From the NCBI GenBank assembly GCA_046563655.1, contig CM102285.1:13578001-13642000 (forward strand): a DNA stretch of 64,000 nt. Reading direction: 5' to 3'. The notes beneath the pieces are model-generated. The model was not told the origin of the DNA and searched no databases. It saw only the letters and a list, made by a program, of their open reading frames with translations. The position numbers and the translations under genes were made by a program. The first letter of the stretch is position 1, and every line of letters starts with the position of its first letter. Origin of the DNA: Yuukianura sp. NJ FZ-2021 (Eukaryota). Below, piece by piece: positions 1,667 to 58,055 of the stretch.

Positions 1667-4600
1667 TTAGACCTGGATAGTAGGAGAGTGTGTATGTTTG
1701 GTTGAGAGATTGAGAGGTGACTCGTAATCTGGAAACAAAAACACCAAATAATGTTATTCACATTGCACTTAACTCATGACGCACCGTCATTTTGGAGTTT
1801 GAGTAAACAAATATTGTTTTGAAAGTGATCAACAATTACCTGGACTTTGTTCCGCCATGATGAGGGAGTGAATGTAGTCGCTCGTTTCACAATTGGCTGG
1901 CTTTTCGTTGAGTCTCAAAGCTAGCGTTGAATGTGGCGAGAAGACTGTTGTGGGGATGGTGTGAGTCAGCGTGGTTGGATGTGACTGGGCTGGAGGTGGG
2001 GGCGGTGGTCTTGTTAGGGCTGATGCCAACTGTGGGTACAGCATGGCGGGTGGCGGTGTTTGTGTTGGTGGAGGAGGACTTTGACGCCTGGAACAAACAA
2101 CAGACAAGTAAATATCACGTCTTTGTTCAAAATAGGAGTGCATTTATTATTCAAAATTTTGAAATTCGAGTTTTGTACCTGAATTTTTTGTGATTGACTC
2201 TCGAAAACTCGCAGACAAAGTTGTTGTCAACGATTGGAGGAGCTTGAAGGGCTCGTTTGAGAACTGGCATTTCTTCCGATAGACTTCCAAAATCTTCAGA
2301 ACGTGCCGGAGAGGAGCAGTTGCCAGACTCGATTCCTGCAATTCAAAATTTTTCATTTTAGAAAACTTGAAAAATTTTCATAATCACCGAATTTCTTCAA
2401 ACTTTTCTTTTAATTCTAAAATTCACCTGAGTCTGCGCTGGGGCTTGGGAATGATTTGTATGGTGAGAACTCTGCCGAATTTGGTGACTCTTGGAACGAT
2501 TCCTCCATTTTGAATGCTAAGAGCTTCTCTGAGTGCAAAGTATTGAGAGTTCGAAGGTCAGGAATTTTTCGTTCCAGTTCCATTCCAAGGGCGGGTGGAA
2601 GGAGAGCTCCTAGTGCTTGGCGGAAGCTCATTGAGAGTCGCTGGATTAATTCAACATTACGTAATCCCGGTCTAAAAATAACCAAAACAAAAAATCGTTA
2701 AATCCTTCCGTCATTCAATACAAATTAATTGCTCAAAATCAAATCGTTTAAGCTCAAAATAGAACTTAAATAGCTCATAAAACTTTGAAATTCACCTGTC
2801 TGCCGCCATGATGACCACTGCACAGAAAATTCCCACGACTTCATCTGACAGGCCCAACTCATTGAATCCCTCAGCAAACTTAAACATTGAGTCGAGCAGA
2901 AAGCGCGTATTTTGACCCTGAGCACTCTGGCGTTCCAGAAGGAGACCATTAATTGACAGCATCGCATTGTTTCGAAACATTGACGCCAGGCGGACCAGAA
3001 GAACTTCAAAAACTCCCGCTTTGAGTAGCGTCACTTGATCATCTTGTGACAAAAGAGTAAACCCTGGAAGTCGTTTGGCAAATTCCACCACTCCACGAAT
3101 CGCTGGAGAGAATCTAGCGGAGAAATCTGTCATTGGAGTTGATTGTGGGTTGAGAGGGCATGCCTAAAACACAGAAAATCCCCATGATTAGTTCTCACAG
3201 TAAGATCCAGAATCATCCAATTCAAGTTCAAGTTTAAAATGAGCAAAAAGCATAGCATAAGTTAAGTTTAGGCGAGTCAGGTGATGAGTCAGGGGGCAGG
3301 AGATGAATAATTCGGCGGAGAAGAGAGAAATTTCCAGGAAGATTTTTGTTTTGTTCAAAAGACCTTGGAAAAGCGACGGACTCTGCGCACTGCTGCTCTT
3401 GCTGAGTTCATTTCCCAAGAATTCTGTTTACTTCCCCCTTCTGCGTCTCTTTTTTTTCCAACCTTACGGTATTATTACTCAGGGGAGAAATGAGAGAAGC
3501 GAATGAGTGAGGAGCGCGTGGGTGCAGAGGTCATTTGGATGTCACGGTGACCTTTCCAGTATATTTTAAAGGGAGTCACCCCCTTCCGGACACTTTTTAA
3601 GCTCAAACTTCCTAATTCCTATTGTTGTAGTGTATTGTTGTCTATGCTCTTTACTTGTTTGGGGTTAGGAACGTTTAAGATTGACAAGGAAGTGCATTTG
3701 AGGCAGTCATGGAGGTCAAATATTGTACTACTGCTCTGCCTGACCAGGAAAGATAAAAGCCAAGGTCCCACCCAAGGACTCCCACCCAACAAACCACGAA
3801 GGCTCAGCATCACTGCCTAATCTTCCCATCTCCAAAAACCATGAAGCAATTGCCACACAATGTTAATGGCGGAAGCGGCCCACGTGGTTGGTCAAACCCA
3901 GAAATTGCGAATTTCAGCAAAAAATCGGAAGCGATTTTCAGAAAATCGCGATTTTTGTATATGCTAAAAGCAGAAATGGCCAATTTGAGGTCAAGGACTC
4001 ACCATTTTCCCTCCGGTATCCCTTCGTGCCGATTCAAACATTCTCTCGACCTTCTCGCGCGTAAATTCGCAAGTATCAAGGTGGGCCTCGATGATTGTCC
4101 CACTCAATTTTTCCAAATCTTCAAGATCCCGGGCAAGAGCATGTTCCGCCGATTTGGCAATATTTGACTGTTGCATTGCTGCTAGAATCTTGGCCTTCTC
4201 TCGTTTTGGAACTCGACCGAAACGTACAGCTGAAAAAACCGAAAAAACGAAATTAAAAACTGACCTTTGAATTTGAAAATTGCAATTTCATGAGCCCTTC
4301 AAAATTTAGTTGGATGAGATGGACAACGACCCGGTAACTAATTTCACTAAACTTATTTTTTTGCGTCGTTAACTTACTGTCTCCCGTATTTTTGCTTAGT
4401 AAAACTTTCCTAAGAATCGAACCACTTCCAAAGGACTCCATGTCCATATTTTATATTTTCTGTAGCACAAAATTGCGAAATTTTTCGCAATTTGCAAAAG
4501 TTAAGTGACTACTGGCTTTTTTGCGTTAAGCTGACCGAGGAGTGACTGGTTGATGAGTGGCTCTTCCTCTTCTACGCCTCGCAACTAAAACTCCAACAGG

Positions 4601-6477
4601 AGCAAATCCTTGACCGAGACAAAGTTTAGCCTTGAATGAGGAAAAAATTCGCACACGACGAGAGTGACTCTGATCAAGTGACGTAGAAGTCTCAAGGACA
4701 CTTCCTACTCAACTTTTTGGCATGACGCTACTAGGTGCATGCTGAATGCTTGCCACTATGCCCTCCTATGTCCTTAGAACCCACACAAAAACGCCAAACT
4801 CTTGGTGGTGGTGTGCTTTTGGTTGCTCCGTTTTGCGGCGAATCGCAAAATATCCTACCCCCTACCCTACCTCACACCACTCTCTCATTGCAATTTTTTT
4901 GCAATAAGTTTTTTGCACAAATATACCTCCCCTCCACTCTATTAGCACAAGAGTACAGTTAATCCATTGGAAAGTTAGAAAGCGACTCTCTCTAGTCCAA
5001 AAGTTAATAGCTGAAGGTTAAGTTGTAGGTTAGACTACGCCATTCAATTCAAACACAAAGTCCGAAATTAGACGTTCTTGTGCCCTCTATTAAATTTTGA
5101 CGAAGGACACCTAGCGGGTGACGATGAGAAATTAATTAATGACTTTCAGACTGACCTCTGAGATATGCTGGGTCATGGTCTTGCTGACCTTTGGAAAACG
5201 GAGACTGACGGAAAGTTGCCACCATATTGTCACACTGATGCAGTATCAAATCAACACACTTCTGTTGCACGGGAACTTAACACTTTTGAACCTAGGAGTT
5301 ACTGAAATTTGAAGCGTAGGTGATGGATAGCCCTTAAATGTTAGCTTGAATCGTAGGAGAGCCCTTAAATGTTAGGTTGAATCGTAGGAGAGCCCTTAAA
5401 CGTTATGATTAATCGTAGATTAATTGTAAGAGTTCAGACTGTAAACTGTTTGGGAATCAAATGCGAACTGAGATGTAAAGATCACAAGACAAAGGGTATC
5501 TAAAAAACTCTCAAATGAAAGTTTCTATTGTTGGCAATTAGGAGTAGAACGCTTTCTGCCTTCTGCCTGTTGCTGGTTCGAATCTCACGGAGTGAATGAA
5601 CTCTACTTTTTCCCAATTCTTGCTTTTAGTGTTAGAGAGAGAGATGATAAGGAGGTGGATGGATGTTGGATACCGTTTTCACTTGACAACAACAATGGGG
5701 CTCTTAATGATGAGAAACGCTAAGGTGTGAACGACCGAGAAGTGGGCCGGTGGTTGTCCTAAACTAGAAACGCGATCATGTCAACCAACTTACACTCACT
5801 GTACTGCCATCATAAGCCAAAATGCATTCTTAACACTATAACCTCACGTAGTACTTTCAACCACCTCACGACATTACATCTCAACCAAGAGCAAAGGAAT
5901 CTGCAGAGGTCGTCAACCTCAAGTCCTGGGAACCTCATCCATCTCATCCGTATAACTTATAGCATAGCCTATTGCGTAATGCTGTCCCACATGAAGTACG
6001 ACAAAAAGGAAACTTACCGTCTCTTGACATGCCCACGGCAATGCACTTCTTGAGTCGACAGTACTGACAACGGTTCCGGTTGACACGCAGGATGCTGCAT
6101 TGCTGGTTCTTGGTACAAGGGCGGTATTGAATTTTTTGTTGAATTGAACGGCGGAAGAACCCCTGCAACAATCAACGTACAAAACATGTAAACAAATTAG
6201 TCATAAATAATAATTGCACCGTGAACAGTTAGCGGAGTTACATAAGGAACAAAACGGAAGAAGAGACAGTTAAGATGTTGTTTGGTCTGAATGACTAATG
6301 AACAGTGTTGACTTAGGTTACAAATGTCTTACGTTAACTTAAATGTTAAAAGTCACACACACTAAGTTGAGTAATGGGTAGTAATTACCTTGCAACCCTC
6401 ACAAGAGTGTACGCCATAGTGGAAACCGCTTGCCTTGTCTCCGCAGACACGACAAAGAACCGTTGTCCCATCAAATT
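1667..6477 (-). CDS. Eip75B: Ecdysone-induced nuclear receptor E75 (NR1D3, REV-ERB orthologue), shared coding exons
   Basis: GT-AG exons 6389-6477, 6018-6162, 4003-4229, 2796-3163, 2427-2671, 2179-2335, 1840-2087 and 1667-1728 splice in frame (~513 aa). [33 protein letters not shown] / [40 protein letters not shown]. Hinge [15 protein letters not shown] with ACPLNP and [13 protein letters not shown] (heme-ligand Cys and His motifs). C-terminal [17 protein letters not shown] and PLNLS. Confidence 0.97.
4378..4447 (-). CDS. Eip75B: E75 alternative first coding exon, DBD-less (E75D-like) isoform
   Basis: ATG at 4447 encodes [23 protein letters not shown] plus 1 nt before a GTAAGT donor. Phase 1 matches the hinge exon acceptor at 4229, giving [12 protein letters not shown]. 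Confidence 0.7.
5329..5418. repeat. 31-bp tandem minisatellite, ~3 copies
   Basis: AGCCCTTAAATGTTAG(C/G)TTGAATCGTAGGAG at 5329 and 5360, with a degenerate third copy at 5391. Confidence 0.85.
5532..5594 (+). mobile_element. Possible degenerate tRNA-derived SINE head
   Basis: B-box-like GGTTCGAATC at 5575-5584 preceded by a loose A-box-like TGGC...GTAG. No complete cloverleaf. Confidence 0.25.
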
Positions 6478-6798: not shown

Positions 6799-6847
6799 CA
6801 ATATCCGGTGAGGATGAGCTATCCGCAAAATACGCCGAACTTGACAT
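6799..6847 (-). CDS. Eip75B: E75 alternative first coding exon (proximal, E75A-like)
   Basis: ATG at 6847 encodes MSSSAYFADSSSSPDI plus G before a GTATTT donor. Phase 1 joins exon 6477 to give ...[12 protein letters not shown], resembling the IEFDG junction of E75A. Confidence 0.65.
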
Positions 6848-7280: not shown

Positions 7281-7293
7281 GGTTCATTGAACG
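7281..7293. promoter_or_regulatory. Candidate ecdysone response element (IR1)
   Basis: GGTTCA-T-TGAACG, ~430 bp upstream of the proximal E75 ATG. Confidence 0.5.
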
Positions 7294-7943: not shown

Positions 7944-8047
7944 CAACATCCGATCTGATCGTAACTTACGATCAGATCGGATGTTGCGCCTTCTGATCAG
8001 ATCGTGACCCTTACGAATTGTAAGGGTCCGATCTGATCAGAAGGCGC
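7944..8047. repeat. Two abutting near-perfect palindromes (hairpins)
   Basis: 7944-7986 has perfect 21-bp arms around a 1-nt centre. 7986-8047 has a 28-bp stem with one bulged T and a 5-nt loop. Confidence 0.9.
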
Positions 8048-8633
8048 GAGACCTGATCAGAAGGTACAAGGACATTAAGGACATAAACAAGAACCGGAGA
8101 GTTATGATGGTTATGGCGCGTTGTTGTTTTCAAAATTGGCGGACATTCAACCCCATTCTGGACAAAAAAAATAGACGCTCACTGCTGACTTGCTGAACGG
8201 GTTAGCCAAACTCTTTTTTCTGGCTAAAAAGACCCCAGTTAGCACTTCAGTATCAGTAACATGTAATGATTTTGTTTGTGCAGAGTTCATCTACCTGTTC
8301 CTTGCTGTTCATGTGAGTCAGCACCAACAAAACAAGCGTTTTTCACCCTCTGCATACTTCGGAATGCCTTAAGCCTTTAAGTGGGCCTCTTACCTCATCC
8401 CCTTTGTTTACACTCGAAGCCTGAATCCATTGTCTCCCTAGCTGATCTCGTGTTCTGCCACTCTGCTATTGAGTCCAAGGCAGCAAAACACTGCTGTCAC
8501 CACCACTACACCACCAGCCCAGAAGGGGAGAGTGACGTCAGACTGGGTCATTGCACGACACGACGTGAGGTGAAGAAACTCAGACAGCGGGAAAAAATGA
8601 GGACGGTTCTTCCTTGAGTAGGGAATTGGATTG

Positions 8634-8646
8634 GGGTCAATGTACT
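8634..8646. promoter_or_regulatory. Candidate ecdysone response element (IR1, hsp27-like)
   Basis: GGGTCA-A-TGTACT in an E75 intron. Confidence 0.5.
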
Positions 8647-8926: not shown

Positions 8927-10407
8927 TCGGAGCTACGTGACCGTGTTGTTAGGGTTAACTATTTTTGACTTTTTCTCTGCACTCATTTTTCTTTGTCAAA
9001 TAACGGGTTGATGGGTACCCTTTTCTGGAAATTTCTGTTCTGGGTTAACGGTACCTTTTCCCTTGACAAAGGAATTTCCTCCTTTCTTCCTTGTTAATCT
9101 GGAGTGAGTAGTTTAGGGCAACATAATGAGGGTTTGAGGTGAGTTTTGAAAGGGAGTTCCTCCCGGGGTCGTTGCCCTTCTCCCCCCCCCCTGTGGTTCC
9201 TGTAGGGGGGGGGGGTAAAATTGAGGGGAATCTGATTAAGTGGCCCATTTAGGCTAGGTGGTAGTGGATGTGTAAACGTACGTTCACCCGGTCATTGCCA
9301 TGTCCCACTTTCCCTCCCCACCGCCGCCCCACCTTTTGGAGCCACGCAACGCGAAACACAAGCATTCTACTCCCAAAGTCAATTTCTAACTCTCCTGATA
9401 CACTCCACTTCCCCTACGGTGTCACTGAACTCTCACTTTATCCTCCCCACCAACCACCCAGTAGCTGTGAATGACCCATTTCACAATAACAAAAAACCCT
9501 TCAACTTCAAACCGTTTCCCTCCAAAAATCAATCCTACCATGTTAAGGGAACGGGGATTCGAGGAAACTGACGTGAGTTGAGACACGTCATAGTGAGGAA
9601 CCGTTAAAAATGGGGCTCAAGTGTCAAATCAGGAGTAAAACCAAAACAAGTCCCCAGCAAAACAATTTTTCTAGGAAATGGAACACTTTTTTTTGTGTCA
9701 ATATTTAAAAATTATATGTTAACAAAACATAATTATGTTTATATTAAAATTATAGGTTACCCCATTTTGTTCAAAAATAAAAAAATATGAGGTCGATGTT
9801 TGGCAATTTTTCTCCCCTCATTATATTTAAAAATTTCCCAATTTCTTTCTACTTGCCATCGTTTTTGTTAACTTAATTTTTTTCCCCTTAAATTTGGACT
9901 TTAGAAATTTAAAAGCAACATTTTTAACTTGATCCTTTCAATCTAAATTTTAACTTGGTACTTCGAGTTTTTGGTTTTTTGAGACTAATTTTAAGGAAAA
10001 GTGTAAAAAATGACACCGAAGAAAGCTACTTTTTTCAAATTATTGCGGCCTATTTTTACCATGATCTTGATTATCATTTCCAAAAAACATAAAATTTTGC
10101 GGTAGCCTAAAATTTTTGAAAGTTAAAATTCTCTACACACGAGTGGTCACGCACACACGCATGCACTGATCTTGTTTATAGTCCAACTCTTATCATCACT
10201 GTTAAACAGTTTGGAAACTATTGTGTCTGTTTCACTTCTGCTGTTTACAGTTGTTTATCCTACCATTTTAGTATGTACTGTCTATGGGAAATGCTTACAA
10301 GAAAACAAATGGGAGATATTGACTTTTAGTCTTACGCAACCAACTATAACACTTTAGGTGAAGAGTCAAAAGTGGCAAGGCAGTCAGGATTGCTCAGAGT
10401 TCATCTG

Positions 10408-11518
10408 AGGACGATGACCCAGTTTTCTCCTTTATCCGCCCTCCGCATTCATTGATTCATCCACCACCGACTGACCTACTTTCAGGACATTCACCCCACG
10501 CACACATTCCAGGGAAAACCTCCATGCCCACTTACCCCACTTTACTTTTAAACACTATCGTCACCCTACACCACGAGGCACAAGAAAAAAAAACTATAAC
10601 TGGAGCGGGCGTTGAACCCACACCTCATTCTCTCAAGCCCCACTCTTACACCTTTCCCCCAAAAAATTCACACGAGTTAGTCACATCTCCTTTCTCCTCA
10701 GAAATCACACGCCTTTAATCATCATCATGTTATTAGCGCAGGAAATTCAAATTATTCATAACGGGTCACCTTACATTCGTTTTAGATTTTTTTAAAAACA
10801 AGAATGCTGCCACATGCTGGACTGGGCCTGCGCCGAGTTAATTTTTTTCTGATCATATGATTAATCTGATAATTTTTTTTCTGATCAAGGAAGCAAAAAC
10901 TATTTTTTCTGAGACTTCTCAGCCTTACTAGCGCAATGAAAGTGTTTTTTGGGTTTTGGAGGCGCTCAGATTGAGGTGACCTAGTTCGAGGGCATCGACC
11001 TGAGGACGATCTCCAGAGTGAGAGAAGGCATAAGAAAGAGAAAGAAGGAGGCTAAAAAGTGGCTATGCTTGTGCTTATGGGGCTACAGATTTGGGGTATG
11101 GTGTGCCTCCTTAAGTTGCATAAGGAGCCTCCCATGCCACTTCTGTGGCTTAGGACCAAGTAGTGAGAGTGACTGACCCACTTCCCGGACATTCACCCCA
11201 GACACGTTCACTCACATCTCAAACTCCAACTTCTATGCTAACTGAAAGTATTATCCAGACCAAGGACTTCCAGCTAAGTCCTAATGACACGAAAAATTGA
11301 GATCATCAAGAGATGACAAACCTAATTGGATTTAGATTATCAAATTTTGTTACTCCAGAGATTCCGAGCCAGAAATCTTCCAGAAAATCTTGTCTTTAAA
11401 GCATGATCATAAGAAAATGGAAATTTTGTATTGTTGAACTTTAAATGTACTACAGAAAGTATATGGTGACCTAGATTACGTAAGTGAGAGTGTTGACCCA
11501 GTTCCCGGACGATGAACC
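10408..11518. promoter_or_regulatory. Cluster of composite RORE/RevRE plus IR1 EcRE elements in an E75 intron
   Basis: Four copies of TGACCY-ASTT-NN-IR1 at 10472, 10977, 11174 and 11494. Also an overlapped IR1/RORE at 10408-10424 and a RORE plus TTACGTAA at 11467-11483. Confidence 0.65.
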
Positions 11519-11961
11519 CCACAACCCACTCATGCTCTCATGCAGTTGTACACAAAACATAACCCAGTACACACAAATGTTTGCAAATGCTGTTACTTCA
11601 ACAATGAAATTGCCCAAATAACAACTTAGCCCCAATAAGGGTCACACTTTTACACACAATTTGACACAGTGACACAAAATAAGTACTCTGCCCAGGAATT
11701 TTTTCCAGTGAATTCGCCCATTGTTGTGTACTTTATTGGTCATTGTTCTAATTTCCTTGTGTCTAATTTAAAACTACTTTTAAAACCAACATTCCAGCGT
11801 ACTTAAAATTTTGAAAATCGTCCTTCCTCCAAGGCTCCTCGAAAAATTATGACCCTAATAACGCTAAAAATCTCCTAAATAAGAATGACATTCTGACCTA
11901 ACTCAAAAAATCGTCAAAAATCGTGACCTAGCATGACGAAAAGCAAAAAATCGACTCTTAC

Positions 11962-12106
11962 CGGAATTCGGATTTTCTTCAGAATCAACGATAGACGAAT
12001 TATCGACATTGTCCATATCCGACTCAATGTCGCCTTCTGACCCAGTATCACTGGTCGCTTCTCCCTCTCTTCTGCAAATCGGTTCAACGCGACTCGTCAG
12101 CGTCAT
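11962..12106 (-). CDS. Eip75B: E75 alternative first coding exon
   Basis: ATG at 12106 encodes 48 aa (MTLTSRVEPICRREGEATSDTGSEGDIESD...NPNS) plus G before a GTAAG donor. Phase 1 is compatible with DBD exon 1. Confidence 0.6.
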
Positions 12107-14280
12107 TTTTACAGCAAACTCAAGTATTCTCACACTTCAGTCGTACGTTAACGGTTCTCCTTGGACACTTTCTGGACCAAAATTCGGACCGTGGTGAGTG
12201 TTGGACAACGGCTGAAGAGTCAGTGACACTCCAAACACCACTTATGAAACGGAGGGAAAGAAAACTTTGGTGCTTCCTTGAGCAAGCTTTTTGGAACGGT
12301 GCTTTCCCTACAGTTATTTCCCTGCTAACAAACACGGAAAGAAGCACAAGGCTTTTGGACCAAACCTCACTGCGTCTGCTCATTCACCCTCAGAAACCAA
12401 AAAACTCTGCTGGAAACTCTTCTATGTGAGTACGACAGAAGCCGTTGCTGTGAAGTTGGAAAACTCATCGCAGACTGCTATAGGAGTTTGCCCAGTCAGC
12501 ACATCACCCCTTCTGGGGTAGCTCCACAAGCTGATCAGCTTGCTATGTGGTTAGCACACCAACTCAAGCTTATTGCTACCAATTGGTGCAACAGACGCCA
12601 GCTGATTTCATCGCGTTAAGCTGATCTGCAAACAACGCCATCTAACCCACCTAACCTCAACTTCCCACAACCTTCACTTCGGAACCTCTCAACGACGGAG
12701 CGGGGAAGCGATCCCGTGGCCTGCAATCGCAGCTTAGCACATAACACCACCCAGCTAGCACCAAAGAGTTGCCTTGCTCCACTGAAACAGAGAGTAACGA
12801 CCCAATGACCTTCACTCTCCTCCGCACTCACGACAATCACTCCCAAATGACCACAAAACATAGGCCCAGCGTCAAAAACTATATTATAGGCTATGGATAG
12901 TCACTAATTAATCATCAACTTTTCACCACCTAATTAACACCACTTCTCCAAAATACCTCAAACACTTGAAATTGAGCAGCATCAGCTATACAACGTGACC
13001 AAGTCCAAAATGCACTTGGACTTTTAATCTAAAAACGAAACCCATGCAACACTTTTTAGTCTAAACCATATGCCCTTAACTCGCTTTACTTTTAGTTTAG
13101 TTGTCAACTTAACTAGGCCCTGACCGCAAATCCATTAGGCCTTGACCACTACGATCTTAATTCAGCCTTCTTTAGGCTTAATTTGTATTTAAAAGCACAA
13201 CTACTTATTAAGTTTCCACCACCCCAACGTTAAAAATACTTTCAATTTACATCCATAATCGTAACCAACCAACCAGTGTTTGGTTTTTGGAACGAACAAT
13301 GATGATGATGACACATAGTATCAGACATGAAAACAGGAAAGCGACGAAAAATTGTGACTAATTCATAACCTAACCCACGTTTTTGTTTTAGCTGTCTACT
13401 TACAGGTCAAAGTGACATTCCAAAGCGGATGGTCACCTTTGAACTACTGCGCCTGCGCATGACACTGATATTACTCAAACACCACCACAACACATAGCAG
13501 GACAGTTCAAAAATTCTTAGCAATTTACTCATTTTCCTTCTTAAATTTGACCTAAACTTCTTCGAAATCGAGGCTTAGGAAACTCCAAGCCTCAAAAGTT
13601 CTAAACCGGAATCCAAGCTTCATCGGTTTTTCATGCACCAAAAAAAAAAAAAAAATTTGAACCGAAAAAAAAAATGCAGAGAGCTGCAGTTTGGTCTGAA
13701 GCGTGTCCCAAAGGCGGAAGCAGGACGATGGAATTCAAGTAAAGTAAAAACGCAGCTACAAAAAAAAAACGCAAGTTCTAAAAACTCTCCCCTACGTTCC
13801 ACGTGCCATCGTTTTTGAAGAGGGTGTTGCCATTGGAAACACCCTCGCACTGCACACAGCACACGCAGTCTACCCGGGCACTGTGCGTAAAGTAGTAAAC
13901 CTTCCAGACAAAACTTTCGGGTTTCTGCTGGCTCCCGGTTCCAAAAACGACTTCAACAAAAAAAATTGAAACGACCAAGCTGGGCTCGTTCCCCTATCTT
14001 GATGTTTGATGGTTCTAAATAATGCGGCGTCCTACTGAACAGGAAGGGGAAGTAGAGGGGAAAATAGGCTTCAAAAAAAGTGAATGGGAATGAAAAGGAA
14101 AAGTTATTTTGAACTCGGAGGCCAAGTACCCAAGTGCCTTACTTATTTTTCCGTTTAGGGCAAGGACACCTTCAAGGGCACCAACACCAAGGGATCAGGG
14201 TGGACTTGGAAAAAAATTACACGAAAACAACAACGGATGCACTTGAAAACGAAAATAAAAAATCGGGTACACTTAAAATA

Positions 14281-14560: not shown

Positions 14561-14678
14561 CGAGCGGAAGGTGCGGATCGGATGGGCCCTTGGCACTTGC
14601 TCTAGGGCCCTGCAGGGCTTCTTTTGGAGAAACGTAGGGCAGGGGGACCCTGAACGTCTCAGGGCTATTTCTGTCCAT
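14561..14678 (-). CDS. Eip75B: E75 alternative first coding exon
   Basis: ATG at 14678 encodes 39 aa (MDRNSPETFRVPLPYVSP...PHLPL) plus G before a GTAAG donor. Phase 1 is compatible with DBD exon 1. Confidence 0.6.
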
Positions 14679-17600
14679 TCTGCTTTCTTTTTATCCTTAG
14701 CTGCTTTCTCTCTCTACTTTCTTTTATCTCTCTAAATCTCTGGAATTCCTTCTAAAGAAAGTAAGTTTGTATCCTCAGGAGGAGATTTCTGGAAGCGTGT
14801 CCTCATAGATCTGAACTTGAACTTGAACTAGGAGAAGTGCAGAAGGAGTTTCGTGTGAAATTGAGAGCATAGAGTAAAGTACTAAAGTAAAGTAGTAAGT
14901 TAGATATTCCAAGTTAAGTGGAGGAAAAAGAAGTAAAGTTCCCTCCACAACTGGAACTGCGCACTCTGCCAGTCAGAGTTCAGTGCCTCCTAGCCTTCTA
15001 ACATTAACATTCTCTGAACCAGTCGAAGGACACACAGGGAAAAAAGAAAGAGAGAAAGACTGGACAACAATTGCTATGCCAAATACTTTCTGGAGATTAA
15101 CACCTTCTAAACTTTCCAGTCCAAAAAACCTACACTTTTTAGTCCAAAAAACTAAACTTTTCAGAAAAAAACAACACACCTTCAACCACATTCTGGCGCG
15201 AACGCCTACTCCAGTCATCATCGAAAAAAACAACCGAGACGCGTCGTTTTTTGCAAATAAAATGCTAAAACACTCCTCTCATTCTTTGAATCGCAAAATA
15301 TTTTGGTACGAAAACAAAGAAAAACGAGAGAAGGATGAGATGCCGCCAGAACTCGTCATCTCCACACGCTCACTCACTCACAAAAAAAACGCCGACGCCA
15401 AGATTCGAACTCGCGAACTCCAGAAGAGTTCAAGGGCAAAGCATTCAAAGACCTACTGAGATCCAAGGACAACCTGCCTAACGATCCGCATCCTTCTAAG
15501 CCAAAAACCTATAGTCTTTTTACCAATTTCACTTTCAATTCTTAACAATGGACAGATTGAGTTACGCGCGATCCTGCTCTTAGGTAATTCACCTTAACCT
15601 TAACATTTCAGTTCAACCTAACCTTAAAATTTCAATTCAACCTAACATTTAGTATTTACTCAAATTTTGAGTAGAATTGCATCAGAAAACTGATCTTCCT
15701 GAGAACATATCATCCTTAATAGGCTTCTACAAGATCCAATTCCACCGAAAATCTTTTGCTTGTCACCCGACCCACTCTCAAGGCCACCAAAATTCACCCA
15801 CACAAAAACTTAACAGGAAAAGAAGATTCACAAGGAAATCCCATTGAAGTGGCTATTGAGAGACATCCACCACTTTCAGTTTCATCCCCCCTTACTTTTT
15901 AGTGGGGGGAGGAGGAGGGGGTATACTTGGAAAAGCATTGAGGAGATCAATTCAGGTCTGAAAGAACTTCGTAGAACTTTGTGGGACCAACGACCCAATG
16001 ACCTTCCTCACCTCTACGCTCAGAGTCAGGGAGAGAGCCACAGCCAACTTTCTCTGCGTCAACTCACCTCGCCTACACTTTTTCCCCTAAAGCTACACAG
16101 GATGCTGGATGCTGATGCTGATGCTGGGGAGAAAGCATCTCGAAATAGGATTTCCACAGACGCTGTCGCTCTGCTGTCTGACTCACAAACTTTCCCCACC
16201 ACACACACAGCACACGTTTTCACTTCAAACATTTTTCAAAATCAACCAAACCACTACTGTCTAACGTGTCACCAAAAATTTTTCCAAATTTGAATTGATG
16301 TGGTGCACTTTCAAAAAATTTGAAATGTAAGCAGGGTGTAAATTTTCAGAAGACAAAAGTTGAGGCAACTTTCACCGAAAAAGGAGAAAATCCAAATCAA
16401 AATTAAAGAAAATCCGTTTTTCAAAAACATCAAAAATTACAACAAAAAATTAATCAATCAATACGATGAAATGATATTAGTCAAAATTTGAATTTGGAAA
16501 GTTATTGCAATCTCAAGTGTCATTTTGATTGTTGAACAATAGATCGAATGACCATCAAATTCAAATTGATCAATTGACTGCTGACCATCAACCAATAGCC
16601 TTGCAGAGATTAAATCTTTGAAACACGTTTGTCAACAGGATTACAATGATTAATCAAACGTGTTACACACCTACGAACATCAATAACACATCGATTAACT
16701 TAACAAGTACAACTTTCACTTATTCAAGGGCCCCCTCCTGCCCCTGTTCAATCATATTTGGAAACTTCCATCTTTGTTTCATGCATTTCATATCTCTTTC
16801 TTTCCTTTTTTGTCAATTAGAAACTGAAGACGATTAAATTTATGCCAAAAGTCATGAACTCCCATTAACCTATATTTTCATAGACACTTTGTTATGCTGA
16901 CACTTCCAACTAAAAAAACTAAATGCTCAACTGTTTTCAACTGTTTATGTTTATGTTTAAAAATAAACACATCGATTAATGCGATGGTTGAACTCTTCGT
17001 CAACTCTTTATGAATCACTTTTCACTTGTCAATTGTTTATCTCGTGACCCGCTATGGCTAGTCATTACAAATCCATTGTCCCACTTTTCACAAAGACAAT
17101 AAAATTCGAAACCAAAAAGCTACAAGTGAAGCCAATTTTGAAAAAAAAGTGCAGTACTAATAAAAATTCAGATCAAAATATTTTCGTTCAGATCAAAATT
17201 TGCTCTTTAGCATAACCTTGACATGGATGCTTCGTTGTACAAGAAGAAAAAAAAATGCTTGAAAAGATCTTGTTTTTTTTCTTTTTCTTTTTTTCGAAAA
17301 AAAAAACCTGCGTTCGCAGCTCGACTGCAATAATTAATTGGAAAAGGAAGAAAATGCAGGGCCCTGAACTTTCTCTAGTGAAAGTCCATGCTGTTCGTTT
17401 CACAACGTAAAAGCATAGTAGATTTTGAGCGTAAAGCCTAGAAGGGGGTAAAAGTGCAGCAAGAAAGCTCACAAACTGACACAGGAGGGTGAAAAACAGC
17501 GTGGCTTGGTTAGGGTGTTACCATGGAAACCCCCTACTTCCACACTTTCTCCCATCGCTTTACTTTCCACTGGACTTTCTCCACTGACTTCCTTCCAAAA

Positions 17601-17808: not shown

Positions 17809-17962
17809 CGAGCGTCGACGCTGAAGCGGCTTGAGACGGGCACGTTGTTGCTGTTGTTGTTGATGTGGGTGGAGAAGCGTCTTTTGGTTCTTGGTTTCTG
17901 CTGGAAGTTGGTGGGGCCGGTGGGGCGTAGGGCAGTGGGGCCCTGAATTCAGGGGTCCCCAT
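17809..17962 (-). CDS. Eip75B: E75 alternative first coding exon (distal, E75C-like)
   Basis: ATG at 17962 encodes 51 aa (MGTPEFRAPLPYAPP...ASTL) plus G before a GTGAGT donor, phase 1. The exon has an acceptor at 18090, and an upstream exon ends at 18311 with a GTAAGT donor. Confidence 0.65.
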
Positions 17963-52282: not shown

Positions 52283-55200
52283 GTGAGTAGCCCTTAAGGG
52301 CCCCACTTTCATATTTTATTTAGAAATTTAGAACGGGGGGCTTTGTATTTGGAAATCCACCTTTAGAATGTGGTTTAATGTCTCTGGAACTGTTGAATTA
52401 GAAAAACATATTGTTGGAATTGGTAAGGCCTGGGGCTCCCTTGAGACACTGGGGCCTTAGTCCTTGTGTTACGTGGAGCTGTTCTCTGTTAGTCTCTGTA
52501 GTACTTTCGTTTTGATCCGTAAGTGGAGAGATAGGATTTCCGTGTTCCAGGGAGATTTTAATTGATTAGATAGACGGCTTCTCCTACTTCCGCTAATTCC
52601 CAACCAGCCACTCTGTCTCCAGGGAGCGTCTCCACACTTTCCCCACTTTCTCTCTCCTTGGATCTGTAATGACTTCCTGGGCAACCGTTACCTAGGTTAC
52701 CAGCCTCCAGGAATAAAAATTCTAAGAAAAATAGGCTATGTGTGTGTGTGGTAAACCTCAAGAGACTCAAAAGCTCTGCACTCCACCCCTTACACACAAA
52801 ATTACAAAAAAAATGTGTAAGGAAATCTATATTTTTAAATTCTAGATTCAAAAGATGCCTTGAACTGAGGATTTTGATCTTCAAAAACCATAATCGACTC
52901 GAATTTTTATTCAAAGGGCGTAAAAATGTTGTAAAGTTTTTGGTTTCTGAAAATTATAAGTTTGTTGAAAATTTTCGTTTTTTGAATTTGTTCAAAGTGC
53001 TTTTATTTCATCAAAAAAGGTTGTTTCCGGTTTCCCATCAAGATGGGCCAAACAAGATTCAGTTTTCATATGTTTTAGGAACATTTTTTTGAAAAGTTGA
53101 AATTTTGAAAGAGATTTTTTGTTGTTAGGAGTGTATTTTTTGGTTTGTTTGTACTAGATTTGGAAGAGGGCGGTTCCGCTCTTTTGAGGAGCAACAATAG
53201 GTGAACAATCGATATCGTTTTCCAAAAGAAGAAGAAAATTCACCAACAAAATTCACTTGAAAGATCATTGACAGAACGAGGTCCTAAAATCCTTTTGGTC
53301 CATTGGACACGGTGTCCGTTTGTGTTGTTAAGACGAAGCTCCTTGTTCTTATGGTCACTTTCCGCCCCACTAAAGCACATAATTCACACGTTCTGAACAC
53401 GGCACCATTTTATGCTCAAGTAGGAGAGAAATCTTCTTAAAGCTAAAACAAGTGCAAGAAGTTGCCGAGAAGATAAATTTCTAAACAAAATTGGAAGTTT
53501 GATCCACCGCGGTGGATCCATCGCCTGTTACAATTTTTTTCTGACTTTTTTTTTCGTTTTTTTGGAAAGTGGCCATGATTAGAGTGAGAACCACTTCAAT
53601 TAGATCCACTCCATTTTTGACACGTAGGAACCCAAAATACCTCATACTTACTAGACACGAACAGAATTCAAAATACCGTACTTCCGCCCTCTTAACTCTC
53701 CTTTTAACTCAAAAACAAACAACTACACTCGTCTTTCAAAAAAAATTTAAATTTTAAAAACTTTGAACACTGACTGCAAGAAAAGTTGAAAAATACTTTC
53801 GCTACTAATTTAAAATTCTCACTTTCAAAGCATGTCTAGGATAACTTCCGAGTATTTGTTCAACTTAAAGGACATGTCCGGATAAGAGATTTCTGGGCCC
53901 TCGCGAAGCCTTGCATTGCGTGAGATAGGAGTTGAGATGAGAGAAATGAATGGGAGCAAATCACCATGTAACTTCTCCTATCCCACACCATGCAAAACTC
54001 CCATTGGGCCCAGCTCCCATCTCTTTCTTAAGCTTATCCGGACATGTCCTTTGAATTTTCGAAAAATTATACACGGGACATCAGTTTTTAAGTTTCAAAA
54101 TTTTGAAAAGTCATAAAAAAACTGTAACAAGAATCTGAAACTTTCACCAGTTCGTCAACCCGCTGGAACTGAAAATATTTCCCGAGGAATTTTCCATAAT
54201 TTTCAAAGCATAGAAATTCAAATGGTGTGGAGTTTGTCAAACTTTTTTCTTAGATTTGGTTGTAATTTTTAAAATTTTAGAACACAGTAACCTTTGTTTA
54301 CGAATGCTAAACTCAAAAATCTGATTCTTCGAAATTTCGAAATTTTATTTCTGAAACAACGGTAGTTTGAGTCAATTGCAATTGTTCGTTAGCAGTCTCC
54401 GGAGAGTCACTTGAGCCCCCACCATGCCCCACCGTAGCCCCATCCACTTAAATCCTCCAACATAAAATCTTTGACTTCTGAAACGGAACTGTTAATTTTA
54501 TGGTCTCTTCCAAAAGTAATTAGCTAAACTCAAAAGTACAATGGCCACCGTACAATTCTCATTTAAGAGAGTTCCATTCTTCCCGCCCACTTTATTCCTG
54601 TTTTCTTAAAGGTGTTGGTTTCTTATGCCTTTGAGTGGGGAACTTGTCACCTCAAGTGTGAGATCCTTAACACCTTCTTTAAAAACTTAAAAGAGCTTCT
54701 TTGATTTGATCTTGAGAGATGCCTTTGAAATTTGGCGACTTTTGATGACTTGTCTGTTCGCATTGTTTTCTTTTCGGTCGTTACATTTCACCGCCACTTT
54801 TACATTGACTAAGACCGTTAGGTTTTGAAAGAGGGACTTTAAGTACCTACAGTTTTTATGGAACGAGGAAATGAGGTTCCCCGGGAACTTTAATTTAAAT
54901 TTTATAATTTTATGACCTTGCGCTGTCACTTCCTTCCGGATCCTTTGAGAATTATGGCTTACTTGTAATAGTCAATGGAAATTGGGGGGCGGGGGTCATT
55001 TGTTGACCTGTCACCACCCGCCCCCCTCTGCTTGATCTAATCAACGGCTAATTGCTAAACTGAATCTGTCTTGTATACTTTACGGGTTAAAGCTTTACGC
55101 GGGAAACAGATGCTTTTGTATTGCCTTGATAGAACAATGAAGGGACCGTTTTTCTAAACAAAAGTTTAGAAAAAACAAGATGAATGGGTGGGTGCGTCCC

Positions 55201-55826
55201 TTACAATTTGAAAATTTAAAAATTTAGAGTTAAAATTCAGTTTCTCTGATGTAAATTAGTCAGTTTGGGAAATTTTGTTGGAAAAATCAAAAACGAGGGA
55301 AAAGCTATTCCAGATTTTGAATAATAATTTAAAGCTTGACTTGAATGATGAAAAATGTAAAGAAAATTTTGCTTTCAATTTGTCCTATTGTCTTCAAAAG
55401 TTTTGTGTGTTAAGTTACATGTCCTATTTACGTTTGGTTTTTCTGTATTTTTCGGCTTTTTAGATTTTTTTTTTATGAATGAGCAGTTCCTGACGACGGT
55501 CATCGGGTCGGGTCATCACTGACCTTTGACCTTGATTAATTTTTTGAAATTTCAAATTGTTACAGTTTTTAAAGGATTTTCGTCTGTTCTGTCTGCAAAG
55601 ATGTGTTTGTGACCTGTTTTTGTGTGATGGTGTAAATGAAATTGTTAATTGTAAATTGTAATTAGATGAGTATTGATCCAGTAGGTGCGACTTTGGTTGT
55701 CGCATGTGAGCCTTTGGTTGTTTCCAGAACTTTTTGGACTCCCAGACTCCCGGGAGAGAATAGAAAATTGAGAGATCCGGAGTCCACAGGGGGTCAGAGG
55801 CTCAAAAGTCTCTTTTTCTCCAGGGA
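44547..55826. promoter_or_regulatory. Intronic cluster of COE/EBF-type sites
   Basis: 12 matches to TCCCNNGRGA on either strand, at 44547, 44602, 46116, 49138, 50156, 50919, 51792, 51876, 52437, 52616, 55748 and 55817. Confidence 0.6.
53867..54052. mobile_element. MITE-like fold-back element, ~186 bp
   Basis: Perfect 20-bp terminal inverted repeats AAAGGACATGTCCGGATAAG / CTTATCCGGACATGTCCTTT, plus internal inverted blocks (CTGGGCCC / GGGCCCAG and GATAGGAG / CTCCTATC). Confidence 0.7.
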
Positions 55827-58055
55827 GACCCCCAGTGTTACCCCGAAAGCTCCAAATATACAAAAACCAACGTCTCACTTAAGGGGTGGGGGGCACTTAA
55901 AGGGAGGGGGACCCCTTATGAATAATACACAAATCCACTCAAGCCTCTGCTTCAAATCAACCTTCCCCACTTCACTTTTTTCATACTTTTGGGAATCGTA
56001 GTACTTGGTAATTGCTGGGTTGGGCCCTTGAGGGTCCCTGGCTTTCAGTTTGGCAGGATATGGGTTTGGGAGTTGGTTGGTTCGGAGTAAAGAGGACTTG
56101 GATAGCAGCAGGGGGTACTTTTTAGCACGTAATCACGCGCCCCATCAATTTTCAATTGTCGATTCTTTCTTTTCGTTCAAGAGTTGCTAGGGAAAGTCTC
56201 TTTCTCTCTTTTTTGAACAAGTTTTCTAAAATAGAAAAAAATGAAAAGTCAGGAGGGTGAGGTTGATCTTGATTATTGTTTGTAAAGGATTTTCAAAATT
56301 GATGAAAATTTAAACAAAATTTGAACTTTTCGAGTAGAATGGAACTGTTTGGGAAAATTTGAAAGTTTTTTGGTTTTGGCTAAAATATTTTTGGTGGGTT
56401 TTGAGGTTGATTGAAGGGTGGGTTTTTGGTGGCGGTGGGTGATGGATTGGGTATAGCCCCACCAAATCCTTAGTCCACCATAGCCTAACCTAACATCACT
56501 TTGTTAGGTTATGCTTAAAGTCTAAGTTTGGTGTAGCAGTTGTTATGGAAAGTGTCTCTTGGAGGTCCTTCGGGAGAGGTGGCTCTGTCCTGGCCCCCTG
56601 CTGACACTCAGTTGCCAAGGACCCCCTCCGACCATTGACCCCCTGCTGAGCGACGCCTCTTCTGGCTTCAACATAACAACCATGGGAATACAAACGCCTC
56701 AGCGTTTGTCAGTCCTGGCCAAAACCTAAAACGAACTCTTCATTTTGTTCGAACATGAAACTACGGCAGGAGACGAACGAAAGTGGAGGCCATACGATCA
56801 CATCAGAGATGACTTTATACAAAAATGAAAAAAAAATATTCGAAGCCACCTCCGAAGATGAAGATGACTGTATGATGTCTCCATCCGTCCAACGCCCACA
56901 TCTTCATCTTCTGTCCAAATTACAATTTTTGGACAACTTATGCTTTTTTGCAATTGAACAAAAACAACAGGACGCTTCTCTGTAGGAAATTTTCTGAATT
57001 TCCTACAAAAATTCAAAAAATTTAAATTTTTCATGATCTATTGTCTTGTCAAAACTCTTTTGGAGAGTTCCAAAATTGCAAATTTTCATGAAATTTTTGG
57101 CCGTTTATGACCCAGTTTCTGGAAATATCACTTTTCAAAAAGTGATTTTCATTTTTTCTTGTGAAATTTTTTCCGTTTTTGTGGTGAACTCGTTTTGAAA
57201 CTGGTGGGTTCTCGTGTTACTTTGAAAGCAGACCACAACAGAACACTCTCCTTTCGACTGCCAGTCAAGTGTCAAGTTTCACTTTTCTTTTTAATTTGAA
57301 CCAAATTTTTTGTAAGTTGTTGAATCAGATCTTTAGTTCAAAAGGAGATCCGAAAGTGAGATTAAGACACAAGAGGACTTAAGGCCTCCACTTAACATAA
57401 CTCTTGGCTATGCGCATGCGCTTGTACAGGTTTAGTCAGGATTCCTTTGATCTCATCTCAATTAGTCAATTAAGTGCAACTCACATGCGCTTAAAAACCA
57501 CTTAACACTTTCTTTGTCATGGATCTTTTAAACTGGTTCTGAGAAGATACTGAAGTTATTTCTATTGTTTGAATTTGAAAATTTGAAAAAGGCGCTGCTG
57601 CTTGAAGCTTGATGGAGTTGTCTCGAGATGAAGCACTTAATTGAAATGATAGGTTCTGGTTTGTGTGAGGACTTGAGACCACCTTGACACAAGGGATTCG
57701 TACCTCATCAGAAGTTATGGTTAGGTTAAGGTTAGGCAATCATTTCCATTATTCCAGTTCACGTCCATTGACCACGGAGAGAGAATAAGTTGTAAGGAAT
57801 GGACCAATTACCCACCCTCAGCACTTCTGCCTGGTTCATCTTCTTCCAAAAAGATGATGAGCTTACTAGGAGGTCATCTTGGTCCTTCCTGCCCAATCTC
57901 CACGGTTCCCTCTAATTCCGAACCGAGCTCAATACTCCCCCATCAAGTCAATTTTAAGTCAGGAAGTCAATGGCCACAACGAGACCAATTTTGTGTCAGA
58001 GAGGAGACTCTAATTTCTAGGTTCTGAAAACACATTAAGGCAAAGGCATTGAGGT

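What the first reader, a model, noticed from the sequence alone, without database searches (positions are those of the whole stretch)
10408..11518. Four fixed-spacing RORE+EcRE composite elements in an E75 intron
Seen, aligned without gaps: 10472 TGACCT ACTT TC AGGACA T TCACCC; 10977 TGACCT AGTT CG AGGGCA T CGACCT; 11174 TGACCC ACTT CC CGGACA T TCACCC; 11494 TGACCC AGTT CC CGGACG A TGAACC. Each is an AASTRGGTCA monomer site on the minus strand whose half-site lies 6 nt from an imperfect IR1. At 10408 an IR1 shares its second half-site with a RORE. Established: AWNTRGGTCA is bound by E75/REV-ERB and HR3/ROR, and IR1 is bound by EcR/USP. Inference: a repeated grammar in which E75 or HR3 competes or cooperates with EcR/USP on E75's own enhancer, forming an autoregulatory switch. 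Flanks mostly differ, although 11174 and 11494 share an upstream AGTGAGAGTG, so partial duplication contributes.
Basis: partly seen in the sequence, partly recalled or inferred. Interest (0 to 1): 0.75.

Follow-up and report, generated by a model that had tools for sequence, protein, structure and literature searches.

The report
Nuclear-receptor site cluster upstream of springtail E75
A short stretch of DNA beside the moulting-hormone gene E75 of a springtail-like animal carries a tight, same-direction cluster of predicted docking sites for hormone-cascade nuclear receptors, partly made by copying one ~40-base unit, which probably helps E75 and its partners regulate E75 itself but is untested.

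Summary
The gene is E75, on the minus strand, in a springtail-like hexapod.

A sequence profile shows that A (10472), C (11174) and D (11494) are homologous copies of a 40-70 nt unit. B (10977) is only marginal. No copy lies elsewhere in the 64 kb.

The RORE half is solid. AWNTRGGTCA occurs 9 times against 2.6 expected, and 7 of the 9 lie at 9472-11494, all on the E75 sense strand.

The IR1 half is weaker. It has 2-3 mismatches to the EcRE consensus, which alone is a chance-level match. It does recur as a motif of its own, 10 hits against 0.63 expected with 9 in the E75 locus. The 13-kb E75 5' region holds 22 EcRE-like sites against about 4-6 expected. Better EcREs lie at 7281, 8634 and 9419.

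Intron status is unproven, because no upstream exon could be confirmed.

Best reading: a predicted nuclear-receptor-responsive regulatory module built by local duplication. It resembles REV-ERB/ROR autoregulation and the Manduca HR3 promoter. Binding, hormone response and cross-species conservation could not be tested.

The parts
10408..10425 (-). IR1-like AGGACGATGACCC (plus-strand reading) sharing its TGACCC half with a full-consensus RORE, AAACTGGGTCA (minus strand)
   Evidence: 2 mismatches to the EcRE consensus; 0 mismatches to WAWNTRGGTCA
10469..10509 (-). Copy A of the repeated unit. The 25-mer is 10472-10496. RORE AAAGTAGGTCA (full consensus), then 6 nt, then IR1-like AGGACATTCACCC
   Evidence: A-C block, z 14; E 7e-12
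10606..10638 (-). Partial copy. IR1-like GGGCGTTGAACC without a RORE, plus about 25 nt resembling the sequence downstream of copy D
   Evidence: (z 4.6)
10977..11001 (-). Unit B. RORE-like GAACTAGGTCA, then 6 nt, then IR1-like AGGGCATCGACCT. Flanks are unrelated to A, C and D
   Evidence: 65% identity to C; E 0.52; second half P about 2e-3 at the fixed offset
11162..11209 (-). Copy C. The 25-mer is 11174-11198. A second IR1-like match, GAGTGACTGACCC at 11167-11179, shares the RORE half-site
   Evidence: E 7e-14
11467..11477 (-). Solo full-consensus RORE AATCTAGGTCA, 27 nt from copy D
11483..11543 (-). Copy D. The 25-mer is 11494-11518. On the minus strand the IR1-like part reads GGTTCATCGTCCG
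   Evidence: (E 4e-14)
9472..9482 (-). Outlying RORE-like site GAAATGGGTCA in the same orientation
8141..8152 (-). IR1-like motif GGACATTCAACC without a RORE
   Evidence: (family D14)
9166..9177 (+). IR1-like motif in the opposite orientation (GGGCAACGACCC on the minus strand). It was not used to define the pattern
7281..7293 (.). Best EcRE-like palindrome in the E75 5' region, GGTTCATTGAACG (1 mismatch). Others with 1 mismatch are at 8634-8646 and 9419-9431
6389..6477 (-). E75 exon encoding the first zinc finger. It begins at a splice acceptor, so at least one coding exon lies upstream
6016..6165 (-). E75 exon encoding the second zinc finger. Further E75 exons map at 5154-5258, 3994-4230, 2795-3163, 2419-2718, 2160-2339 and 1670-2089
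6799..6847 (-). Candidate (unconfirmed) first coding exon of E75: 16 codons plus 1 base, followed by GT

Best explanation
The 1.1-kb stretch is the core of a predicted cis-regulatory module of the E75 gene. It lies in E75's 5' territory, either in an intron of long isoforms or in the 5' flank.

The module is dense in nuclear-receptor sites. Seven monomer sites of the RORE type all point the same way as the gene. Interleaved with them are imperfect one-base-spaced inverted repeats. Read on the minus strand, each has a good 5' half (RGKTSA) and a degenerate 3' half (YGYCC), as natural ecdysone response elements do.

Three of the four 25-mers (A, C, D) arose by local duplication of one unit of about 40 nt or more that already held both motifs. 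B is either a much older copy or a convergent one.

Proposed mechanism (inferred, not shown): HR3 (ROR-type activator) and E75 itself (REV-ERB-type repressor, or a partner that blocks HR3) act at the monomer sites. EcR/USP acts at the IR1-like sites and at the better EcREs at 7.3-9.4 kb. Hormone induction of E75 would thus be followed by feedback from E75 and HR3.

Shown here: the gene identity, the motifs, their enrichment, their orientation and their duplication history. Not shown: which proteins bind, and any effect on transcription.
For: -
- The RORE consensus [A/T]A[A/T]NT[A/G]GGTCA, and its use for E75 because the DNA-binding domains are conserved, come from passages of PMC4454776.
- The window's first-zinc-finger exon (30 aa) is 100% identical, and its second-finger exon (50 aa) 96% identical, to springtail E75.
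- AWNTRGGTCA gives 9 hits against 2.61 expected. Seven of the 9 lie at 9472-11494, and all seven are on the minus strand. Clustering was reached in 0 of 200,000 random placements, or 8.5e-5 with the duplicates collapsed.
- RGGTCA is densest in the window here: 11 in 1.6 kb, out of 87 in 64 kb.
- Similarity among the copies stops sharply after about 40 nt while the flanks are unalignable. This fits constraint on the block.
- B keeps all 10 RORE positions. Its second half fits a pattern built without it (P about 2e-3).
- The IR1-like motif GGRCRWYSAMCY gives 10 hits against 0.63 expected. Nine of the 10 are in the E75 locus, including 2 that were not used to define it.
- EcRE-like matches at 2 mismatches or fewer: 22 of 39 lie in 6.5-19.7 kb (binomial 1e-6, or 5e-5 without the finding's own four). 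Shuffles of that segment give 4.4 sites.
- Section 13 of PMC3498158 states that the USP half is conserved and the EcR half varies.
- Precedents read as passages: two adjacent ROREs recruit co-repressor through REV-ERB (PMC7086371). Manduca HR3 is repressed by E75A through a monomeric response element in a promoter that also holds EcREs (PMC3498158 discussion). DHR3, ROR and NHR-23 all bind ROREs (PMC12105198).
Against: - No binding, expression, chromatin or cross-species data could be examined. No eukaryotic genome collection was on hand.
- A, C and D are copies of one unit, so there are fewer independent observations than four.
- B is not significant as a whole-unit copy (E 0.52).
- The IR1s have 2-3 mismatches. 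All four lack the T of the 5' half when read on the plus strand. EcRE matches of this quality occur about once per 2 kb by chance.
- The pattern GGRCRWYSAMCY was fitted after the fact to 7 of its 10 hits.
- With one mismatch allowed, RORE matches in the whole window are at chance: 35 against 34.4 expected.
- The transcription start sites are unknown.
- The same-strand bias could simply reflect duplication or the region's negative GC skew.
Confidence: 0.5

Rival explanations
1. Neutral debris. A short segment was duplicated locally a few times, or homogenised by short-patch gene conversion. It happens to contain an RGGTCA half-site, and the sites do nothing.
For: A, C and D are homologous copies, and a further partial copy lies at 10606-10638. 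C and D share the upstream AGTGAGAGTG, which is not a receptor motif. D and 10606 share downstream sequence that is not a receptor motif. All copies have one orientation, as local duplicates often do.
Against: The flanks are unalignable while the blocks are 81-88% identical. RORE sites at 9472, 10415, 10977 and 11467 share little or no alignable flank with A, C and D: 10415 shares a 9-10 nt run with D, and 10977 and 11467 share one with each other. The whole 13-kb 5' region is enriched about five-fold for EcRE-like palindromes, which the duplicated unit does not explain.
Confidence: 0.25
2. The unit is a fragment of a dispersed repeat or transposable element of this genome. It may or may not have been co-opted, and it is unrelated to hormone-responsive loci as such.
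For: The copies are short, bounded and oriented, as expected for pieces of an element. Only 64 kb could be inspected, so genome-wide copy number is unknown.
Against: The profile finds 0 significant copies outside 10.4-11.6 kb in the window. The next best hits have E of 0.34 or worse. No terminal inverted repeats or flanking duplications were seen around the copies. None of 9 open reading frames in the E75 5' region matches a Pfam family. No tRNA-like or Rfam match was found.
Confidence: 0.12
3. A functional module read by other factors than those proposed. Examples: another monomer-binding receptor (E78, HR38 or HR39 type), or a receptor reading the TGACCY-n6-RGGRCA everted arrangement. EcR/USP would play no part at these 25-mers.
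For: The middle half-site is poor for EcR/USP: AGGACA, AGGGCA, CGGACA, CGGACG. Much better EcREs lie outside the finding, at 7281, 8634 and 9419. The everted-repeat reading rests on my recollection of PXR/CAR-type sites, not on any call.
Against: The SF-1/FTZ-F1-type extension YCAAGGYCR is absent from the cluster: 0 of its 4 window hits lie there. The 5' extensions fit the RORE consensus specifically.
Confidence: 0.1
4. An RNA-level element. All copies lie on the E75 sense strand, so they could act in the pre-mRNA as a structure or as a binding site for a splicing factor.
For: Seven of 7 RORE-like sites lie on the sense strand. So do 12 of the 14 RGGTCA between 9472 and 12806, by my count.
Against: The folds are no more stable than shuffles (z +0.29, -0.79, +0.27, -1.44). 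The consensus fold of A, C and D has an unfavourable covariation term and many broken pairs. No Rfam family matches there. It is not known that the region is transcribed.
Confidence: 0.03

Closest known systems
REV-ERB/ROR response elements (ROREs), including adjacent RORE pairs and REV-ERB's feedback role
   Same: The consensus matches: an A/T-rich extension followed by RGGTCA. The sites lie beside the gene for the REV-ERB orthologue. There are two close same-orientation pairs, 10415/10472 and 11467/11494, like the 'two adjacent ROREs' mode described in PMC7086371.
   Different: No RevDR2 lies within the 25-mers: the bases 2 nt downstream are not half-sites. In Drosophila, E75 is described as blocking DHR3 by heterodimerising with it, not by competing for DNA (PMC12105198). 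That REV-ERB-alpha represses its own promoter is my recollection; my search did not retrieve a passage on it.
Manduca/Bombyx HR3 promoter: EcREs plus monomeric response elements (MRE1, MRE2) through which E75A represses
   Same: It is a regulatory region of an ecdysone-cascade receptor gene that combines EcR/USP sites with monomer sites used by E75A (PMC3498158 sections 12 and 14).
   Different: The gene differs (HR3, not E75) and so does the lineage (Lepidoptera). There the elements are kilobases apart or merely near each other, not fused at a fixed 6-nt spacing. The primary papers (Hiruma and Riddiford 2004; Lan et al. 1999) were not available.
Canonical EcRE (IR1, RGKTCANTGAMCY) and the Bombyx E75-A, HR3-B and EcR-B1 EcREs
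   Same: Inverted half-sites with a 1-nt spacer, a good 5' half and a variable 3' half. Several instances start the 3' half with CG, as does the Bombyx consensus KCRGGTCWWCGMWC.
   Different: There are 2-3 mismatches to the consensus, and the third position of the 3' half is always a pyrimidine instead of A. The Bombyx E75-A EcRE lies at -335 to -315 from the start site. Here the near-perfect palindrome at 7281 is the better positional analogue, not the 25-mers.
E1+E2 composite EcRE of lepidopteran EcR-B1
   Same: It sets a precedent for an EcR/USP site needing a second element at a short fixed distance, 2-5 bp (abstract).
   Different: The partner element there is an E-box, not a nuclear-receptor monomer site.

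Membership tests
E75 (NR1D3) gene | C4 zinc-finger DNA-binding domain and nuclear-receptor ligand-binding domain, with best matches to named E75 proteins | tested here: met
   zf-C4 scores E 2e-10 and 3e-17, and Hormone_recep E 3e-11. The top named hits are springtail E75 at 72-75% identity, and the listed named hits are almost all E75. Eight exon matches are collinear on the minus strand.
RORE (monomer site of ROR/HR3 and REV-ERB/E75) | RGGTCA core preceded by [A/T]A[A/T]NT | tested here: met
   Zero mismatches at 10415, 10472 and 11467. One mismatch (G at the first position) at 9472, 10977, 11174 and 11494. The consensus is taken from a passage of PMC4454776.
RORE (monomer site of ROR/HR3 and REV-ERB/E75) | Bound by HR3 or E75, and confers their transcriptional response | not testable with these tools
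   No binding or expression data are available for this organism.
RevDR2 (REV-ERB homodimer site) | A second RGGTCA 2 nt downstream of the extended half-site | tested here: not met
   Downstream of the four sites the sequence reads gtcggtgg, cctcaatc, gtcactct and acactctc. Two half-site direct repeats with a 2-nt spacer exist elsewhere, at 12798-12811 and 15991-16004.
EcRE (EcR/USP IR1) | Match to RGKTCANTGAMCY | tested here: inconclusive
   Two mismatches at 10408, 10484 and 10989. C and D are not listed at 2 mismatches or fewer, and I count 3. Window-wide, 39 hits against 28.4 expected. At a fixed offset the probability is 3e-4 for 2 mismatches or fewer and 3e-3 for 3 or fewer.
EcRE (EcR/USP IR1) | Conserved USP half-site containing TC(A/T) | tested here: inconclusive
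   Read on the minus strand, the feature is met in D (GGTTCA) and 10408 (GGGTCA) but not in A and C (GGGTGA) or B (AGGTCG). The criterion comes from PMC3498158 section 9.
EcRE (EcR/USP IR1) | EcR/USP binding and 20E inducibility | not testable with these tools
   This needs a gel-shift or reporter assay.
Dispersed repeat / transposable element | Many copies at unrelated loci | tested here: inconclusive
   There are 0 significant copies outside 10.4-11.6 kb in this window. The rest of the genome could not be searched.
Dispersed repeat / transposable element | Terminal repeats, target-site duplications or element-encoded proteins | tested here: not met
   No such features appear in the repeat scans. 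Zero of 9 open reading frames have a Pfam match.
Structured RNA | Stable, conserved fold or a known RNA family | tested here: not met

The most novel reading that the evidence does not exclude
The 25-mer is a dedicated three-half-site platform. On the minus strand it reads USP half, 1 nt, EcR half, immediately abutting the A/T extension and core of a RORE. On it an HR3 or E75 monomer and the EcR/USP heterodimer would touch or exclude each other. The hand-over from hormone induction to HR3/E75 feedback would then be written into a single 25-bp element. That element was amplified in E75's own control region and conserved since before insects and springtails split. It would be a direct DNA-level coupling of the ecdysone receptor with the REV-ERB/ROR pair, which has not been described.
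Probability: 0.1. Interest if true: 0.7.

Novelty: new member of a known kind. Interest (0 to 1): 0.4.

Why it matters
E75 and HR3 are the arthropod counterparts of REV-ERB and ROR. How they feed back on the ecdysone cascade is known mainly from flies and moths.

A dense, oriented RORE cluster next to EcRE-like sites in the E75 control region of a springtail would suggest that cross- and auto-regulation among these receptors at the DNA level is old. It would also give a compact set of about 1 kb of candidate sites for gel-shift and reporter tests in a basal hexapod.

As it stands, this is a sequence prediction of an expected kind, not a surprise.

Tried and rejected
- **tRNA or SINE origin:** ARAGORN found 0 genes in the window.
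- **Known RNA families:** in 6.5-19.8 kb there were only sub-threshold matches at 7.3-8.0 kb and none in the finding.
- **RNA structure of the copies:** rejected.
- **Coding or transposon proteins in the E75 5' region:** 0 of 9 open reading frames match Pfam, including the 118-aa plus-strand frame over 10362-10718.
- **Locating upstream E75 exons:**
  - tblastn with three E75 proteins found nothing upstream of 6478.
  - A scan for ATG-to-donor frames in the right phase gave 8 candidates. None resembles the N-termini of the 120 E75 homologues.
  - The shared PE.FR.PLPY of two candidates comes down to a 22-nt DNA match.
  - The 51-aa candidate found 0 relatives among 1.84 billion representatives. 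The 48-aa candidate found none either.
  - A 16-codon candidate at 6799-6847 looks plausible but is too short to search.
- **FTZ-F1-type sites:** none in the cluster.
- **Literature:**
  - No paper on E75 regulatory DNA in Collembola was found. One search listed 6 papers on other subjects, of which I saw only the search listing.
  - (E75 + RORE + autoregulat*) returned 6 unrelated papers.
  - Lan et al. 1999 (PMC84291) is not held. The workshop abstracts record PMC2999422 held no usable text.
- **Not used:** the prokaryotic genome collection (no bearing on a hexapod locus), and structure and complex prediction (no protein question was open).
- **Not checked:** cross-species alignment and genome-wide copy number, because no eukaryotic genome collection was available. 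The figures and supplementary figures of PMC3498158 (Fig. 7B, S6, S7) and PMC9502983 (Fig. S3), which show the actual EcRE sequences, were not seen.

Full report
**What the window is.** The left part of the window holds an E75 gene on the minus strand. Six-frame translation shows the two halves of a C4 zinc-finger domain at 6389-6477 and 6016-6165. A ligand-binding-domain exon lies at 2795-3163. Pfam confirms zf-C4 and Hormone_recep.

A search with the 123-aa ligand-binding exon listed almost only named E75 proteins among its named hits. The closest named ones come from the springtails Orchesella, Folsomia and Allacma at 72-75% identity, and an unnamed protein reaches 94%. tblastn with three of these proteins maps eight collinear exon matches from 6478 down to 1670.

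The next gene upstream on the same strand is NSUN5-like and ends at 19788. About 13 kb (6.5-19.8 kb) is therefore E75's 5' territory. The finding at 10408-11518 lies 3.9-5.0 kb upstream of the first mapped exon.

**Intron or flank.** The first-finger exon begins at a splice acceptor with stop codons just upstream in frame, so at least one coding exon lies further 5'. I could not confirm where.

- tblastn found nothing upstream.
- Of 8 start-to-donor frames in the right phase, none resembles E75 N-termini.
- Two were searched in the large libraries and found nothing.
- A 16-codon frame at 6799-6847 would splice to read ..PDI|EFDGTT. In most of the 64 homologues that hold EFDGT (64 of 120 examined), the residue before it is I or L. 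This remains only a candidate.
- If that candidate is real and is the only promoter, the finding is 5' flank. If more distal first exons exist, as in insects (recalled), it is intronic.
- 'Intron' is therefore unproven.

**The observation.** All four 25-mers are present as described, as are the composite at 10408 and the shared AGTGAGAGTG. The copies are not equal.

- Local alignment gives significant blocks only for A-C (10469-10509 with 11171-11209, z 14) and C-D (11162-11200 with 11483-11521, z 12).
- A weaker block links 10606-10638 to the 3' part of D (z 4.6).
- A profile of A, C and D with flanks recovers those three at E 4e-14 to 7e-12. B scores E 0.52, amid unrelated hits, and nothing else in the 64 kb is significant.
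- Beyond about 40 nt the flanks do not align.

So three 25-mers are copies of one duplicated unit, and their 'fixed spacing' is inherited. B shares all ten RORE positions. At the same offset its second half fits a pattern built without it, with 3 mismatches (P about 2e-3). B is either an old copy in which only these positions survived, or a convergent one.

**The monomer sites.** The published RORE consensus is [A/T]A[A/T]NT[A/G]GGTCA. It has been applied to E75 on the ground that the DNA-binding domains are conserved (PMC4454776, passage).

- The 10-nt core AWNTRGGTCA occurs 9 times in the window against 2.61 expected, and 0 of 100 shuffles reach 9.
- Seven of the 9 lie at 9472, 10415, 10472, 10977, 11174, 11467 and 11494, all on the minus strand.
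- Three of these (10415, 10472, 11467) match the full 11-nt consensus. The other four miss only the first position.
- Random placement never reproduced the cluster in 200,000 trials. With A, C and D counted once, the probability is 8.5e-5.
- Against this, with one mismatch allowed the whole-window count is at chance (35 against 34.4). The signal is the local cluster of good sites, not a general excess.
- RGGTCA itself peaks here, with 11 in 1.6 kb of 87 in the window.
- Twelve of the 14 RGGTCA between 9472 and 12806 are on the minus strand (my count).
- No FTZ-F1-type site lies in the cluster. None of the four units has a second half-site at the RevDR2 position.

**The IR1 half.** I compared it with the canonical EcRE RGKTCANTGAMCY, as given in PMC3498158 section 13.

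- The 13-mers of A, B and 10408 have 2 mismatches. Those of C and D have 3.
- Such matches are common: 39 in the window against 28.4 expected. No single one is evidence.
- Three things speak for the motif all the same.
  1. At a fixed offset from a RORE, the chance of 2 mismatches or fewer is 3e-4, and two units with unrelated flanks (A and B) have it.
  2. The second half recurs on its own. GGRCRWYSAMCY gives 10 hits against 0.63 expected, 9 of them between 4321 and 11507. They include 4321 and 9166, which were not used to write the pattern, and 8141 and 10607, which have no RORE beside them. The pattern was fitted after the fact to 7 of these, which inflates the figure.
  3. Read on the minus strand, the instances have a good first half (GGGTCA, GGTTCA, GGGTGA, GGTTGA, AGGTCG), one A or T, and then YGYCC. 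That is the asymmetry described for natural EcREs, where the USP half is conserved and the EcR half varies (PMC3498158).
- More broadly, 22 of the 39 EcRE-like matches fall in the 13.2-kb E75 5' region (binomial 1e-6, or 5e-5 leaving out the four that overlap the finding). Shuffles of that segment give 4.4 sites.
- The best matches there lie outside the finding: GGTTCATTGAACG at 7281, and 1-mismatch sites at 8634 and 9419.

**Alternatives tested.**

- No tRNA-like or Rfam element overlaps the finding.
- The sense-strand RNA folds no better than shuffles and shows no supporting covariation.
- No open reading frame in the region has a Pfam match.
- No terminal repeats were seen.
- A dispersed-repeat origin cannot be excluded, because only 64 kb was available.

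**How it probably works.** The most economical reading is a nuclear-receptor-responsive module in E75's control region. Its core unit, a RORE abutting an EcRE-like inverted repeat, was multiplied locally.

Several facts come from the literature I could read:

- REV-ERB binds single ROREs, or two adjacent ones, and recruits co-repressors (PMC7086371).
- DHR3, ROR and NHR-23 all bind ROREs, and E75 heterodimerises with DHR3 and blocks it (PMC12105198).
- In Manduca, E75A represses HR3 through a monomeric element in a promoter that also holds EcREs (PMC3498158 discussion).
- Bombyx E75-A has a functional EcRE close to its start site.

By analogy, EcR/USP would induce E75 through the EcREs. HR3 and E75 would then act on the monomer sites to shape or end the pulse. 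Whether the abutting sites cause competition or cooperation cannot be told from sequence. All of this is inference. I put it at about 0.5, with neutral duplication debris at 0.25 and a dispersed repeat at 0.12.

**Verdict.** It is a predicted new member of a known kind of element and of moderate interest.

Noticed in passing
window 12798-12811 and 15991-16004 (minus strand): An identical 16-mer, GAAGGTCATTGGGTCG, occurs at both places. It is two half-sites as a direct repeat with a 2-nt spacer, sitting inside blocks of about 45 nt that resemble each other. This is a second duplicated nuclear-receptor element in the E75 5' region.
   Followed up: partly
window 54900-57900: A second cluster of RGGTCA half-sites, 8 in 1.6 kb. 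It includes TCAAGGTCAAAGGTCA (a perfect direct repeat with a 1-nt spacer, minus strand around 55520-55535) overlapping GGGTCA-n4-TGACCT, also GGGTCA-n5-TGACCT at 54993-55009, and a full-consensus RORE at 57108. None of the 14 open reading frames tested between 39 and 64 kb has a Pfam match, so the target gene is unknown.
   Followed up: partly
window 6799-6847 (minus strand): A candidate 16-codon first coding exon of E75, followed by GT. It would splice to give ..PDI|EFDGTT, like the short N-termini of other springtail E75 proteins. The near-perfect EcRE palindrome at 7281 lies about 430 nt upstream of its ATG.
   Followed up: partly
window 5154-5258 (minus strand): An alternative exon matches the N-terminus of a 458-aa relative whose listed sequence starts in the hinge and holds no zinc-finger region. 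That relative may be a fragment. If it is complete, this E75 also makes an isoform without a DNA-binding domain. A 31-nt tandem repeat of 3 copies (5325-5417) lies just 5' of the exon.
   Followed up: no
window 7944-8066: A 38-nt-arm palindrome rich in GATC and TGATCA gives sub-threshold microRNA-family matches on both strands (31 bits against a gathering score of 90). It is probably a palindromic repeat, not a microRNA.
   Followed up: no
window 17926-17947 and 14633-14654: A shared 22-nt motif (91% identical) inside two candidate start-to-donor frames. It holds AGGGYC-n4-TGCCCT. It explains an apparent peptide similarity (PE.FR.PLPY) that is not evidence of coding.
   Followed up: partly
window 10000-14000: GC skew is strongly negative (-0.15 to -0.22), meaning C-rich on the plus strand and G-rich on the E75 sense strand. 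It coincides with the same-strand bias of the half-sites.
   Followed up: no
window 19788-42300: The neighbouring genes are ordinary housekeeping ones. Pfam-supported: an NSUN5-like methyltransferase, an EF-hand protein, a diphthamide-synthesis protein, 60S acidic ribosomal protein, an RCC1-repeat protein and a ribosomal S17-like protein. I also judged a CTD-phosphatase-like gene to lie at 35.6-39.4 kb. That was by eye only, since the three frames tested there had no Pfam match.
   Followed up: partly
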